Shown: one piece after another, positions 19,724 to 23,726 of the stretch
Position numbering within the stretch: the stretch's first letter is position 1
How the letters are laid out: the number at the start of each line of letters is the position of its first letter
Origin: Candidatus Thorarchaeota archaeon
Lineage (GTDB): Archaea; Asgardarchaeota; Thorarchaeia; Thorarchaeales; Thorarchaeaceae
Assembly (NCBI GenBank): GCA_003345555.1
Contig: PRDJ01000041.1
Location: forward strand, 30,001-62,000
DNA: 32,000 nt
Direction: 5' to 3'
Translations under genes and position numbers: made by a program
Notes under the pieces: generated by a model
What the model saw: the letters and a program-made list of their open reading frames with translations, nothing else
The model's database searches: none
What the model was told of the DNA's origin: nothing

Positions 19724-19904
19724 GACAAGAGTCAGTGATAGCCCGTGTTCTTGCCGACAACCTTTTTACTGCTACAAACGCAGCCGGCCACCTACAGGCG
19801 AGGTTCGAAGATAATCCTTAAATGCTGTATACGAAGTCCATGTACAGTTTTGGCTGGACCCGTCTAGGTTAGGCCAATGATTATTCCAAATGGAGGAAAT
19901 GATT

Positions 19905-21566
19905 GTGAGTCAACAGGGTGGCCAAAGTGTTCCGGTCTTGATACTCAGAGAAGGCACAGAGCGGAGCACAGGCCGTGATGCACAACGCAATAACATCATG
20001 GCGGCAATCGTAGTCGCTGAAGCAATCAAGTCGGCCCTGGGTCCAAAAGGCATGGACAAAATGCTCGTGGACTCTTTTGGTGACGTGACGATTAGCAACG
20101 ATGGCGCCACGATTCTCAAGGAGATGGATGTTGCACATCCAGCAGCAAAAATGGTGATAGAGGTAAGCAAGACAGTCGACTCAGAGGTGGGCGATGGTAC
20201 AACCACTGCCGCTGTCCTTACGGGTGAGCTCCTGAAACAAGCTCAGACGCTCCTCGATCAGAAGATACATCCTACGACGATTATCAGCGGCTATAGGAAG
20301 GCCGCTGAGAAGGCAATGCAAATCATCGATTCCGCAGCGGAGACTGTTGATCCGAAGGATCCTGCGTACAGAAAGCTGTTGGTTGATGTTGCCAAGACTG
20401 CTATGTCGAGCAAGTTTGTGTCCGCCTCGAAAGATAATCTGGCTGAAGTCGTAGTCGATGCAGTCCTCTCGGTTGCAAAGACATTGCAGCCTGGTGAGGA
20501 GATAGACATGGAAAACCTGCCCCGTCAGAAGCAAATGGGTTTAACATTCCAGTCAAGCGAACTCGTGAAGGGCATCGTGCTTGACAAGGAAGTCGTCCAT
20601 TCGGGTATGCCGACAAAGGTGGAGTCAGCCAGAATAGCTCTCTTGGAGTGCCCGCTTGAGATTACAAAGACTGAGATCACGGCCAAGATTGCGATACATG
20701 ATCCGCAGTCGATGCAGGGCTTCCTTGGCGAAGAGGAGAGACTTCTCAAGACAATGGTTGACAAAGTTATCGAATCTGGAGCGAATGTTGTGATTTGTCA
20801 AAAAGGCATTGATGATGTGGCTCAGCACTACCTTGCCAAGAATGGTATCTTGGCTGTGAGAAGAATCAAGAAGTCAGATGTGGAGAGACTTAGCAAAGCC
20901 ACGGGAGCTACTATTGTTTCCAAGATACACACGCTCTCAAAGGCAGACCTTGGAAAGGCGAAGCTCGTCGAGCAGAGGAAAATCGGCGATGACAAGATGG
21001 TCTTCATCGAAGGGACTCCGTATTCATCTGTAGTGACACTTCTCATCAGAGGTGGCACTCAGCATGTTGTCGACGAGGTTGACCGCGTGGTGAATGACGC
21101 TCTTTGGGTCGTGCGCGACGTCATAAAGTACCCAAAGATTAGCTACGGAGGCGGTGCCATCGAAGCTGAGGTCGCTATGAAGCTGCGTCAGATGGCATCA
21201 ACTCTCGAAGGGAGAGAGCAGTACGCTGTGAATTCGTTCGCGGATGCAGTAGAATCTATTCCCGCAGCGCTGGCAGAGAACGCTGGCCTAGAACCCATTG
21301 ATACGTTGGTTGACCTCCGGACAGCCCATACTGAGGGAAAGGTCACATTCGGAATCGACATCGAAAAGGGCAAGGTTGGAGACATGAAGAAGACTCGTGT
21401 CATTGAGCCAACACTTGTCAAGAGGCAGGTTATCGCTTCTGCCGCAGAGGCCTCACAGATGATTCTGAAGATTGATGACGTGATTAGCTCGAAAGGCAAG
21501 AAGGGAATGGGTGCACCTGGCGGGAAGGGCCGGGGAGAACACGACAAGGAACTAGATGAAGACTAG
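19905..21566 (+). CDS. Thermosome (group II chaperonin) subunit
   Basis: [29 protein letters not shown] and GGGAIE. GTG 19905 (MSQQGGQ...), 8 nt after GGAGG, is preferred over the ORF-track start at 19890. Confidence 0.97.
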
Positions 21567-21600
21567 AGATCCAGTTGGCGAGCAGAAAAAGGTGCGATTA

Positions 21601-22263
21601 ATGGCGGAAGACTTCGACCCGGAAGAGAATGAGAACGAGGAGTTCATCGAGGAAGAACCAGAGCCGGCTTTTGTGCTGACACGCATTCCGGGCGTTGGAC
21701 CAAAGACGGCTGAGAAGCTCGTGGCTTCTGGCTATGGCGATGTCCAGAAGATTGCTGCCGTGGATGCCGAAACTCTTGCTGGAGCCGTTCCAGGTTTGAG
21801 TGAAGCAAAGGCGGAGATTATAATCAATGAAGCCAAGTCATTCTTGGAGGAAACCGCAGCCGAAGCTGAAGAAAAAGGCAAGAAGTCCAAACGCAAGAAG
21901 AGCACTGAGGTTGAGCCGACAAAGGTAGGACTCCCGCCCGCAACCGAACGCGCTCATGAGGACGAGGTCGCATCACTACAAACAGGCTACGACAGGGAGA
22001 AGAAGGAGCTGGGCATAGCCATCGGCCCGAAGTGGTTGACGAAATACGAGAGGGCAAGAGTCGTCGGTGCCCGTGCGCTTCAGATTTCAATGGGTGCCCC
22101 TGTACTCATTGATATCAACACTGCGCCGAAAGGACTGTTTGCTCTCGCAGAGGCAGAGCTGAGGGCCGGGGCCCTTCCCATGACTGTCCGAAGAACCCTT
22201 CCGTCCGGGGAACATTTCGACATCCCTCTTTCAATCCTGCTGAAGAGCACGAAGTTCAGCTAG
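21601..22263 (+). CDS. rpo6: RNA polymerase subunit Rpo6 (K/omega) with N-terminal acidic tail and helix-hairpin-helix domain
   Basis: C-terminal [22 protein letters not shown]...[17 protein letters not shown]; N-terminal [12 protein letters not shown]...[12 protein letters not shown] tandem HhH. Confidence 0.95.
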
Positions 22264-22373
22264 TGTCCAACTTCAGTCCCTCTTTTTCTGATAGAGCAGT
22301 ATTACCCAGATTCGTGATAAAACGCCTTAAGAGCCATTGAATACGATGCTGTAGGTCCCGATGGTGATAGTGC

Positions 22374-23726
22374 ATGCAGATTGTTGTCACTCCTGACCTC
22401 GTGATGATGTGCCTAATCGGTTTTGCAGTAGGCGCTCTGATAGGTCTTGAGAGACAGAAACGCATGACGGAAGAGATGTCCTTGGGAGTGAGGACGTTCG
22501 GACTCCACAGTCTGCTCGGCACAATATCGGCCTACATATTCCGGGTCTACGATAATCCGTACATCCTGATATACGCCATATGTGTCTCAATTGTGTTCTC
22601 TGCAGCTTCAGTTGTCTACAAGATATTCAGGACAACACGGAAAGGCCTGACCACCTCGATAGTGTTCGCATTGTCCTTCGTCTTGGGCGCATTGGTCGGT
22701 ATGGACCCAACGCCAAGCCCGAGTCAGCCTCTTGGAGAACTAGAAGTCCTTGCGATGACAATATCATTTCTGGTGTTCCTAGTTCTGAGCTTCAAAGAGG
22801 AACTGGCTGCTGCAGTAGCTTCTGTCAGCCACGAAGAAATGATAGGTGCAGCCGAACTAATGGTTCTAATTGCCTTTCTATGGCCGATCCTCACACAATA
22901 CCCCAATATTGCCGTTGGCCCACTTACATTTCCACTCTTCCAGACCTATTTCCTAGTTGTCGTACTACTATCCATCAGGTTTGCCAGCTACATAATCGTA
23001 AAGAAGTACAAGGACCGTGGTCCCTACTTCTTCGGCTTCTTTGGAGGTTTCGCCAATAGCGAAGCCACAGTCTCAAGTATAACGGACTTCCACAACGCAC
23101 TTGAGGAGAAATACCCCGGTAGGATGTCTCTAGCCATCATACTTGCTAACCTCGCCATGGTGCTCAGAAACGCAGTGCTCGTCGTAATCCTCGACCCTAC
23201 CCTCAACATATTCAGGTTGTACTTGGGGCCTCTTCTAATCCTCTTGTTCGTTGGCGTGCTGAGGTTTCTATATGAAGGAAGAAGAAGACTGAAGCCAGAA
23301 GCCAAAGAAGATATCGGCGCGCGAATTAAGGTTGGATTCGGATCACCGTTCTCTCTGCATGCTGCACTTCGGTTTGCCATTATCTTCTCGTGCGTGTCTC
23401 TACTGGCGCTATGGGCCCAGCAGTCTTTCAGTCAGCTAGGCATGATAGTTGCTGCGTTCATCGGAGGATTTGCTTCGGCTGGAGCAGTGGTTTCCATAGC
23501 TGCTCTTTCATATTCAACAGGAGCAATCACACTCGCTACGGCAGCATTTGCCGTAATCATCGCCACAACTACATCGGTGTTCAACAAGATCATTTACGTC
23601 TTCTTGGGCGACTACCAAGGCCGACGTGACTTGTCGAGAATGGCCGCAAGAGATGCACTGGTCATGGGAGCCGCCGTACTCGGCTTTCTGGTGTTGCTGC
23701 AACTGGGATACATTCCGATTGAGTAG
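22374..23726 (+). CDS. MgtC/SapB-DUF4010 integral membrane protein
   Basis: GALIGLERQ...GVRTF MgtC motif, about 13 TM, GGFANSEAT and C-terminal IAxxxxxxNK. Confidence 0.9.
   Translation: MQIVVTPDLVMMCLIGFAVGALIGLERQKRMTEEMSLGVRTFGLHSLLGTISAYIFRVYDNPYILIYAICVSIVFSAASVVYKIFRTTRKGLTTSIVFALSFVLGALVGMDPTPSPSQPLGELEVLAMTISFLVFLVLSFKEELAAAVASVSHEEMIGAAELMVLIAFLWPILTQYPNIAVGPLTFPLFQTYFLVVVLLSIRFASYIIVKKYKDRGPYFFGFFGGFANSEATVSSITDFHNALEEKYPGRMSLAIILANLAMVLRNAVLVVILDPTLNIFRLYLGPLLILLFVGVLRFLYEGRRRLKPEAKEDIGARIKVGFGSPFSLHAALRFAIIFSCVSLLALWAQQSFSQLGMIVAAFIGGFASAGAVVSIAALSYSTGAITLATAAFAVIIATTTSVFNKIIYVFLGDYQGRRDLSRMAARDALVMGAAVLGFLVLLQLGYIPIE

What the first reader, a model, noticed from the sequence alone, without database searches (positions are those of the whole stretch)
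21601..22263. RNA polymerase subunit Rpo6 fused to an acidic tail and a tandem helix-hairpin-helix domain
Seen: one ORF of 220 aa containing an acidic N-terminus ([19 protein letters not shown]), a tandem HhH ([12 protein letters not shown]...VPGLSEAKA, about 21673-21847), a basic linker (KGKKSKRKK) and a canonical Rpo6 core (about 22021-22245). Established: typical archaeal Rpo6 is much shorter; eukaryotic RPB6 has an acidic disordered N-tail that binds TFIIH p62 but has no HhH; HhH-type folds occur in the Rad51/RadA N-domain, the NusA AR domains and the bacterial alpha-CTD. Inference: this RNAP carries a flexibly tethered DNA- or protein-binding module, functionally analogous to the alpha-CTD or a platform for coupling to repair or translation. 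The acidic tail may foreshadow RPB6.
Basis: partly seen in the sequence, partly recalled or inferred. Interest (0 to 1): 0.6.

Follow-up and report, generated by a model that had tools for sequence, protein, structure and literature searches.

The report
Thorarchaeal Rpo6 with tethered HhH domain
In one family of Asgard (Thor-type) archaea, the only copy of the small RNA polymerase subunit Rpo6 carries a DNA-binding-type helix-hairpin-helix domain and a lysine patch on a flexible arm; the fusion is real and conserved, but a 2026 paper already mentions it, its function is untested, and it is not a step towards the eukaryotic subunit.

Summary
Observation confirmed. Window 21601-22263 (+) is one intact 220-aa ORF. 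Its parts are a disordered acidic tail (aa 1-21), one (HhH)2 domain (aa 22-90; Pfam HHH_5, E 4e-14), an invariant Lys/Arg patch (aa 91-101), a conserved linker, and a full Rpo6/RpoK core (aa 129-220; NCBIfam NF002207, 96.9 bits against a cut-off of 71).

It is the only Rpo6 in the genome. The fusion occurs in 82 of 86 genomes and 16 of 16 genera of the window's own family. It was not found in the 29 other Asgard families searched. dN/dS of the HhH part is 0.07-0.16, so it is under purifying selection.

The sister family keeps the same gene order (thermosome, rpoK, MgtC-like gene). Its Rpo6 has the acidic tail and basic patch but no HhH, so the HhH was inserted once between them. Similar HhH-plus-lysine cassettes sit on a Topo VI-A paralogue and, in some genera, on ribosomal protein L32e of the same family.

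Best reading (inferred, untested): a weak, sequence-independent nucleic-acid tether on RNAP. It would work like Sulfolobus Rpo13 or the bacterial alpha-CTD without being a member of either family.

One sentence in Shematorova & Shpakovski 2026 (PMC13257274) already notes the feature. This scan also found it before in other genomes (e1-5626150, e1-5681279), with the same verdict.

The parts
21601..22263 (+). rpoK/rpo6 CDS, 220 aa plus stop; the sole Rpo6 gene of the genome
21591..21594 (+). GGTG Shine-Dalgarno-like motif 6 nt upstream of the ATG; only 34 nt separate it from the thermosome stop, so co-transcription is likely (inferred)
   Evidence: synteny
21601..21663 (+). Acidic, disordered N-terminal tail (aa 1-21). 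Net charge in homologues has a median of -7. The composition is conserved but the sequence is not (36% pairwise identity).
21664..21870 (+). (HhH)2 domain (aa 22-90) with five helices. Hairpin 1 is [11 protein letters not shown] and hairpin 2 is GLSEAKAE. G33, K39, G65, S67, K70 and A71 are invariant. The hairpin part is about neutral and helix 5 is acidic.
   Evidence: dN/dS 0.07-0.16
21871..21903 (+). Lys/Arg patch (aa 91-101). Net charge is +6. K97 and R98 are invariant. At 74% pairwise identity it is the best conserved stretch (the core is 73%).
21904..21984 (+). Conserved Pro/Glu linker (aa 102-128). P106, L111, L126 and T128 are conserved. pLDDT is low in isolation. It may pack on the RNAP surface (inferred).
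   Evidence: PMC13257274
21985..22260 (+). Rpo6/RpoK/RPB6 core (aa 129-220) with the [12 protein letters not shown] and LPMTVRR motifs
19890..21566 (+). Thermosome (Cpn60/TCP-1) gene directly upstream; this neighbourhood is conserved in the sister family and in a distant Asgard family
22374..23726 (+). MgtC/DUF4010 membrane protein gene downstream; the same neighbour is present in the sister family

Best explanation
This gene encodes the only Rpo6 (RpoK; homologue of eukaryotic RPB6 and bacterial omega) of a Thor-type Asgard archaeon. Its C-terminal 92 residues are a normal Rpo6 core that should sit in RNA polymerase as usual. In the ancestor of this one family, an (HhH)2 domain was inserted once into an older charged N-terminal extension, between an acidic tail and a lysine patch. 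The result is acidic tail, then HhH, then KSKRKK, then linker, then core. Most likely (inferred, not shown), the HhH hairpins and the adjoining lysine patch bind the sugar-phosphate backbone of duplex nucleic acid without sequence preference. Every polymerase would then carry a weak DNA tether on a flexible arm that stabilises polymerase-DNA contacts during promoter search, initiation or elongation. The acidic tail may shield the basic patch when it is not engaged (speculative). This is the same design principle as the Lys-rich tail of Sulfolobus Rpo13, the bacterial alpha-CTD, and HhH fusions that raise polymerase processivity.
For: Identity:
- The RpoK equivalog model scores above its cut-off.
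- The core superposes on RPB6/RpoK chains at 1.6-1.9 A over about 73 aa.
- It is the only Rpo6 match in a 93%-complete genome.

Real and selected:
- The fusion is in 82 of 86 genomes, 16 of 16 genera and 23 of 23 high-quality genomes of the family.
- dN/dS of the HhH is 0.07 and 0.16, against 0.06 and 0.02 for the core.
- The hairpin residues and K97/R98 are invariant in 41 sequences.

Single insertion:
- The RpoK HhH domains form one clade (95/86).
- The sister family has the same synteny and the same tail and basic patch, with a clean gap of about 80 aa where the HhH sits.

Nucleic-acid reading:
- Hairpin 1 is the canonical G-h-G HhH, as in RadA, UvrC and Hef.
- The closest solved sequences are a Topo V (HhH)2 repeat, the RadA N-domain and the N-extension of Haloarcula L32e.
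- The nearest paralogues in the same genome are the HhH repeats on the N-terminus of Topo VI-A (39% identity; 48-58 bits against 34 for RadA).
- HhH-plus-Lys-linker extensions of Top6A are confined to the same family.
- L32e of some of its genera carries a similar HhH-plus-Lys extension.
- A cassette shared by a topoisomerase, a ribosomal protein and RNAP argues for generic backbone binding rather than one protein partner.

Precedent: Rpo13 has an acidic N-tail, a small helical core and a Lys-rich tail that binds dsDNA non-specifically on RNAP (PMC3479171).
Against: - No binding experiment exists.
- The HhH domain as a whole is net acidic (median -5).
- Its best structural match is NusA AR1 (Z 11.3), an acidic (HhH)2 domain that binds proteins, not DNA.
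- The position of the Rpo6 N-terminus relative to DNA in this polymerase was not modelled here.
- If the conserved linker packs on the enzyme, the free reach is short.
- The donor of the HhH is unresolved, because there are only 63 alignment columns and many forks in the tree are open.
Confidence: 0.55

Rival explanations
1. The HhH domain is a protein-docking module, like NusA AR1/AR2 or the RadA/Rad51 N-domain. It would recruit a transcription, repair or chromatin factor to RNAP, or fold back on RNAP or TFE.
For: The best structural matches are NusA AR1 (Z 11.3, rmsd 1.6 over 69 aa) and AR2 in complex with alpha-CTD (Z 9.8). The domain is net acidic. PMC13257274 reports AF3 models with extra Rpo6-Rpo5 and Rpo6-RID contacts in Thorarchaeota.
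Against: Hairpin 1 keeps the canonical G-h-G motif with invariant Lys residues. My recollection that the NusA ARs lack this motif is from memory and was not tested. No NusA C-terminal-repeat model hit was found for this protein. The acidity lies in helix 5, not in the hairpins (from the sequence). The same cassette type sits on Top6A and L32e, which share no obvious protein partner with RNAP. An invariant Lys patch follows directly.
Confidence: 0.22
2. The module binds RNA (nascent transcript or structured RNA) near the RNA exit and stalk side of Rpo6, coupling transcription to RNA handling.
For: Related cassettes occur on ribosomal protein L32e in the same family and in haloarchaea. From textbook Pol II structures (recalled, not tested here), Rpb6 lies at the clamp base near the Rpb4/7 stalk.
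Against: (HhH)2 domains characterised so far mostly bind duplex DNA. The nearest paralogues are on Topo VI-A, a DNA enzyme. There is no evidence on geometry.
Confidence: 0.12
3. The HhH is a neutral passenger from a lineage-wide burst of HhH domain shuffling and adds nothing to the polymerase.
For: HhH modules are gained, duplicated and lost on other proteins in this family. L32e has the HhH in some genera but not in the window's genus. Some RpoK genes carry a tandem duplication of the HhH (P0008).
Against: The fusion is retained in 16 of 16 genera. dN/dS is 0.07-0.16, similar to the core. The hairpin residues are invariant.
Confidence: 0.06
4. The fusion is an artefact: two genes joined by mis-assembly or a sequencing error, or the core is translated alone from an internal start.
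For: A few database entries are truncated or frameshifted just after the A-rich Lys-patch codons (P0144, P0210).
Against: Intact ORFs were found in 82 independently assembled genomes. There is no Met between residue 1 and M164, which lies inside the core, and homologues share the N-terminus. The truncated entries read as frameshifted copies of the same fusion. No second Rpo6 gene exists in the genome.
Confidence: 0.02

Closest known systems
Thorarchaeota Rpo6 as described in Shematorova & Shpakovski 2026 (PMC13257274)
   Same: The same protein family and the same observation: a long N-terminal sequence with a folded helical element detected by AlphaFold3, citing the Shao & Grishin HhH paper.
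   Different: [quoted passage not shown] It does not give the family-level distribution, the insertion point, the invariant Lys patch, selection estimates, or the related cassettes on Top6A and L32e.
Canonical archaeal Rpo6/RpoK and eukaryotic RPB6 (RPABC2)
   Same: The core fold and motifs match. It is the sole copy in the genome. Like RPB6, it has a disordered acidic N-tail.
   Different: About 128 extra N-terminal residues including a folded (HhH)2 domain. RPB6 chains match the core only. The RPB6 tail binds the TFIIH p62 PH domain (PMC8754651), a partner that was not examined here.
Sulfolobus Rpo13 (PMC3479171)
   Same: An RNAP-borne small helical element flanked by an acidic N-tail and a Lys-rich tail. 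In Rpo13 the Lys tail binds dsDNA non-specifically and stabilises RNAP-DNA contacts.
   Different: No homology was shown. Rpo13 is a separate subunit with an HTH, docked between Rpo5 and the clamp head. Here the module is an (HhH)2 fused to Rpo6.
Bacterial RNAP alpha-CTD
   Same: A small HhH-class domain tethered to an RNAP subunit by a flexible linker.
   Different: There is no PF03118 match. It is at the N-terminus of the omega homologue rather than the C-terminus of alpha. UP-element or activator binding is not testable here. It was not among the top 50 structural matches, which is inconclusive.
HhH accretions on other nucleic-acid proteins: M. kandleri Topo V (HhH)2 array and haloarchaeal L32e N-extension (NCBIfam PRK12766; PDB 1S72 chain Y)
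   Same: These are the closest solved sequences to the N-module (E 4e-7 and 5e-5; the L32e alignment spans tail, HhH and linker). The logic of adding a backbone binder is the same.
   Different: The host proteins differ. Topo V repeats also carry AP-lyase sites (PMC4838376). The proteome of this genome is not acid-shifted, unlike salt-in halophiles.

Membership tests
Rpo6 / RpoK / RPB6 | Match to a curated family model above its cut-off | tested here: met
   NF002207 scores 96.9 bits against 71 over aa 132-218. Pfam PF01192 alone scores 25.1 against 26.
Rpo6 / RpoK / RPB6 | Rpb6 core fold | tested here: met
   Foldseek matches RPB6/RpoK chains at rmsd 1.6-1.9 A over about 73 aa, with target TM about 0.8. 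Core pLDDT is about 90.
Rpo6 / RpoK / RPB6 | Serves as the cell's Rpo6 (no other copy in the genome) | tested here: met
   It is the only significant match in the own genome, which is 93% complete.
Rpo6 / RpoK / RPB6 | Physical incorporation into RNA polymerase | not testable with these tools
   Needs purification or a structure.
(HhH)2 domain (Pfam HHH_5) | Model match above the gathering score | tested here: met
   53.3 bits against 27, E 4e-14, aa 26-79.
(HhH)2 domain (Pfam HHH_5) | Two hairpins in a five-helix fold | tested here: met
   AF2 predicts helices 22-26, 34-42, 48-52, 56-62 and 68-90. RadA N-domain superposes at rmsd 0.9 A over 57 aa. NusA AR1 gives Z 11.3. The G-h-G and G-h-S hairpins are invariant.
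(HhH)2 domain (Pfam HHH_5) | Sequence-independent DNA binding | not testable with these tools
   Needs EMSA or anisotropy measurements.
Bacterial alpha-CTD | Match to PF03118 and position at the C-terminus of the alpha/Rpo3 homologue | tested here: not met
   No PF03118 hit at E <= 1. The module is N-terminal on the omega homologue.
Bacterial alpha-CTD | Flexible tether to the polymerase | tested here: met
   AF2 gives pLDDT below 50 for aa 90-95 and 47-72 (ten-residue block means) across aa 91-130. pTM of 0.43 indicates independent domains.
NusA acidic repeat (AR1/AR2) | Match to TIGR01954 (NusA C-terminal duplication) | tested here: not met
   No hit for this protein at E <= 1. The structural similarity is high, but it is at fold level only.
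Eukaryotic RPB6 N-terminal tail | Disordered acidic tail | tested here: met
   pLDDT is below 50 for aa 1-6 and 9-19. Median net charge is -7.
Eukaryotic RPB6 N-terminal tail | Homology of the tail, or a p62/Tfb1 PH-domain partner | tested here: inconclusive
   The tail is low-complexity, with 36% pairwise identity even within the family. PDB RPB6 alignments start at aa 120-144. The partner was not searched for.
Sulfolobus Rpo13 | Sequence or fold homology to Rpo13 | not tested
   Only the charge architecture was compared with the description in PMC3479171.

The most novel reading that the evidence does not exclude
One archaeal family spread a portable 'HhH plus lysine linker' cassette onto several nucleic-acid machines: RNA polymerase Rpo6, a Topo VI-A paralogue and ribosomal protein L32e. 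On RNAP it would act as a built-in arm like alpha-CTD or Rpo13, contacting promoter-flanking or downstream DNA and changing how the polymerase finds or holds its template. That would be a convergent solution across the three domains of life.
Probability: 0.3. Interest if true: 0.55.

Novelty: new variant of a known kind. Interest (0 to 1): 0.4.

Why it matters
Archaeal RNAP is the model for the ancestor of Pol II, and subunit-borne DNA-binding arms are rare in it; Rpo13 in Sulfolobales is the known case. A polymerase whose omega/RPB6 homologue always carries an (HhH)2 domain and a lysine patch would be a natural test of what a permanent non-specific DNA tether does to initiation and processivity. 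The module could be grafted onto tractable archaeal polymerases. It also corrects an appealing but unsupported idea: the feature is a derived trait of one Thor-type family, not an intermediate towards eukaryotic RPB6. The value is limited because the fusion is already mentioned in the literature and no function has been shown.

Tried and rejected
- **Salt-in (halophile-like) adaptation as the driver of HhH accretion.** Rejected. For 1103 long ORFs of the genome the median pI is 6.35 and (D+E)/(K+R) is 1.10, so the proteome is not acid-shifted.
- **RadA N-domain as the donor.** Not supported. RadA falls outside the RpoK HhH clade and scores lower than the Top6A and L32e repeats (34 against 40-58 bits). 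The donor remains unresolved.
- **Stand-alone 'acidic tail plus HhH' proteins (P0136, P0144, P0182, P0210).** These read as truncated or frameshifted copies of the fusion that break at or after the A-rich Lys-patch codons. They are not a split form.
- **The 235-aa start at 21556.** Rejected in favour of 21601, from the N-termini of homologues.
- **Long Rpo6-bearing frames outside the family.** G259 (185 aa) and G112 (159 aa) have no HhH. G235 (536 aa) has an Rpo6 core inside a different, unrelated extension.
- **Sigma-70-type promoter and terminator scan.** Uninformative for an archaeon.
- **Literature search for Thorarchaeota plus HhH, Topo VI or RpoK.** Nothing beyond PMC13257274.
- **alpha-CTD as a structural neighbour.** It did not appear among the top 50 VIA matches, which is inconclusive.

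Full report
**1.

Window 21601-22263 (+) is an uninterrupted ORF of 220 codons. Pfam finds one HHH_5 (HhH)2 domain at aa 26-79 (E 4e-14, 53.3 bits against a cut-off of 27). Pfam also gives a just-sub-threshold RNA_pol_Rpb6 hit. NCBIfam's RpoK equivalog NF002207 covers aa 132-218 at 96.9 bits against a cut-off of 71.

The basic stretch KGKKSKRKK is aa 92-100.

An upstream ATG at 21556 would add 15 residues. It overlaps the end of the thermosome gene, and no homologue shares those residues. In the 41-sequence alignment all 21 displayed sequences have the Met matching 21601, and two database entries carry longer N-termini (P0006 shown). A GGTG lies 6 nt before that ATG.

**2. Anatomy.**

An AlphaFold2 model built on the 41-sequence alignment has mean pLDDT 75 and pTM 0.43. 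It shows these parts:
- a disordered tail (pLDDT below 50 for aa 1-6 and 9-19);
- five helices (aa 22-90, pLDDT about 77);
- a low-confidence linker (pLDDT below 50 for aa 90-95, then ten-residue block means of 47-72 up to aa 130);
- a confident Rpo6 core (pLDDT about 90).

Structural matches:
- The core superposes on RPB6 and RpoK chains at 1.6-1.9 A over about 73 residues.
- The HhH superposes on the RadA N-domain at 0.9 A over 57 residues, with 44% identity.
- A model of the HhH alone, compared with 48,161 representative chains, matches NusA AR1 best (Z 11.3, rmsd 1.6 over 69 aa).
- Further matches are NusA AR2, the Hel308/POLQ HhH domain, LigA, the RAD51C N-domain and Hef.

By sequence, the nearest solved relatives of the N-module are a Topo V (HhH)2 repeat (E 4e-7), the RadA N-domain, and the N-terminal extension of Haloarcula L32e.

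Region statistics over the 41 homologues:

| Region | Pairwise identity | Median net charge |
|---|---|---|
| Tail | 36% | -7 |
| HhH | 57% | -5 |
| Basic patch | 74% | +6 |
| Linker | 52% | -3 |
| Core | 73% | +4 |

In the window's own sequence the HhH hairpin part is about neutral, and the acidity sits on helix 5.

Invariant residues include G33 and K39 in hairpin 1, G65, S67, K70 and A71 in hairpin 2, and K97 and R98 in the basic patch.

**3. It is the cell's Rpo6, and the fusion is real.**

The genome (2.28 Mb, 93% complete) has a single Rpo6 match, and it is this gene.

A word-indexed search of 5.8 billion proteins returned 342 relatives of 121-385 aa. The best 120 are 197-325 aa long and nearly all carry both HHH_5 and Rpb6 hits. 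Many are named RpoK of 'Candidatus Thorarchaeota'.

An exhaustive search of 1.84 billion cluster representatives found only three clusters at 50% identity with the full architecture.

Distribution across Asgard genomes:
- Rpo6 was found in 283 of 301 genomes from 30 families.
- Every listed Rpo6-bearing frame of the window's own family is 220-263 aa.
- The frames of other families are about 90-185 aa, with one unrelated exception.
- The HhH-plus-basic segment, used as a query, hits 72 of 76 genomes of the own family and only 4 of 224 outside it. None of those four is in an Rpo6 gene.
- Within the family it hits 82 of 86 genomes, 16 of 16 genera and 23 of 23 high-quality genomes, in ORFs of 218-300 aa.

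Nei-Gojobori dN/dS in two unsaturated pairs is 0.07 and 0.16 for the HhH, against 0.06 and 0.02 for the core. The added domain is therefore under purifying selection.

**4. How it arose.**

In the single genome available from the sister family of the same order, the gene order is the same: thermosome, rpoK, MgtC/DUF4010. Its Rpo6 is 153 aa, with an acidic N-tail and a basic patch but no HhH. Aligned with the fused forms, it shows one clean gap of about 80 residues exactly where the HhH lies.

The charged extension is therefore older, and the HhH was inserted into it.

In a tree of HhH domains, the RpoK copies form one clade (95/86). RadA lies outside it. The two copies in a 320-aa variant (P0008) are a recent tandem duplication.

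The donor is unresolved. The nearest paralogues in the window's genome are the HhH repeats in the long basic N-extension of a Topo VI-A paralogue: 39% identity and 48-58 bits with an RpoK-HhH profile, against 34 bits for RadA.

Other HhH-plus-lysine extensions in the same family:
- The extended Top6A (open frames of 494-954 aa) appears in all 26 other genomes of the own family that were searched. The sister family has a 420-aa frame, and the listed frames of other families are mostly 390-483 aa.
- In two other genera of the family, L32e carries an N-terminal HhH followed by a very lysine-rich linker.
- In the window's genus, L32e has only the lysine-rich extension.

**5. Mechanism.**

Shown:
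- It is the sole Rpo6.
- It carries a folded (HhH)2 domain on a low-confidence linker.
- The hairpins and the Lys patch are invariant.
- The added domain is under selection.
- It arose once.
- Similar cassettes sit on DNA- and RNA-associated proteins of the same lineage.

Inferred: the HhH and the Lys patch bind duplex backbone non-specifically, giving each polymerase a weak tether.

The best functional precedents are these:
- Rpo13 of Sulfolobus, which has an acidic N-tail, a small helical core and a Lys-rich tail that binds dsDNA non-specifically with a Kd of about 2 uM (PMC3479171).
- The alpha-CTD of bacterial RNAP.
- HhH fusions that raise salt tolerance and performance of DNA polymerases (PMC8313265, listed, abstract only).

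Against this reading, the domain is net acidic and looks most like NusA AR1, which is a protein-binding (HhH)2. A docking role is therefore the main rival. RNA binding and neutral accretion are weaker rivals. Artefact is excluded for practical purposes.

**6. Comparison with what is known.**

[quoted passage not shown] They suggest that it stimulates transcription. So the existence of the feature is published, though only briefly and loosely.

This scan had also flagged the same fusion in several other genomes. Two follow-ups (e1-5626150, e1-5681279) reached the same verdict. I found the paper and the distribution independently before seeing those notes.

The RPB6 link is weak:
- RPB6's acidic tail binds TFIIH p62 (PMC8754651).
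- The Thor tail is low-complexity and is shared with HhH-less relatives.
- The HhH is absent from eukaryotic RPB6 chains.

**7. Verdict.**

This is a real, conserved, family-specific variant of Rpo6. It probably acts as a non-specific nucleic-acid tether. Its existence was already noted in print and its function is untested. Interest is moderate.

Noticed in passing
L006:847-3060 (own genome, contig C11): A Topo VI-A paralogue of 738 aa has an N-terminal extension of about 380 aa made of very lysine-rich disordered stretches plus two HHH_5 domains. Extended forms (open frames of 494-954 aa, up to 7 HhH in P0125) occur in all 26 other family genomes searched. The listed frames of other Asgard families are mostly 390-483 aa. 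The family also keeps a Top6A paralogue of 351-388 aa.
   Followed up: partly
L023:651-1430 (-) and L024:357-1244 (-); own genome L025:1429-2169 (-): In two other genera of the family, ribosomal protein L32e (between L6 and L19e) carries an N-terminal HhH plus a long Lys/Ala/Pro linker, as in haloarchaeal L32e. The window's own genome has a 115-aa lysine-rich extension on L32e but no HhH.
   Followed up: partly
L017:1129-1674 (own genome, contig C77): Ribosomal protein L13e has a weak, degenerate HHH_5-like C-terminal segment (aa 125-178, 26.8 bits). Whether this is lineage-specific was not checked.
   Followed up: no
L021:1494-2801 (genome G235, another Asgard family): An Rpo6 core (PF01192, aa 135-184) is embedded in an open frame of at least 436 aa (536 aa by the genome search). 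It has unrelated N- and C-terminal extensions and no other Pfam hit. This is another unusual Rpo6 architecture.
   Followed up: partly
window 19890-23726; L019; L020: The thermosome gene lies directly upstream of rpoK in this genome, in the sister family, and in a distant Asgard family. The MgtC/DUF4010 gene downstream is shared with the sister family. So rpoK here is linked to the chaperonin gene.
   Followed up: partly
window 21556-21600: The public gene call for this contig (P0002, 235 aa) starts at an ATG that overlaps the thermosome stop codon. The N-termini of homologues indicate that the true start is 21601.
   Followed up: yes
P0144, P0210, P0136, P0182 (database entries): Several predicted 'HhH-only' proteins are the same gene truncated or frameshifted at or just after the A-rich codons of the Lys patch. 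This is likely a hotspot for sequencing or assembly errors.
   Followed up: partly
P0008 (320 aa), P0009 (325 aa): Some family members have a tandem duplication of the HhH-plus-linker unit in RpoK. The two copies are sisters in the domain tree (99/94).
   Followed up: partly
L011:1441-3048 (-), L009:1489-3168 (+), L013:793-1656 (+) (own genome): Three further proteins with a terminal HHH_5 have no other Pfam hit (536 aa, C-terminal HhH; at least 560 aa, N-terminal HhH; 288 aa). NCBIfam gives the second one weak hits far below cut-off (KamC ATPase, MutS2, UvrC). Their function is unknown.
   Followed up: no
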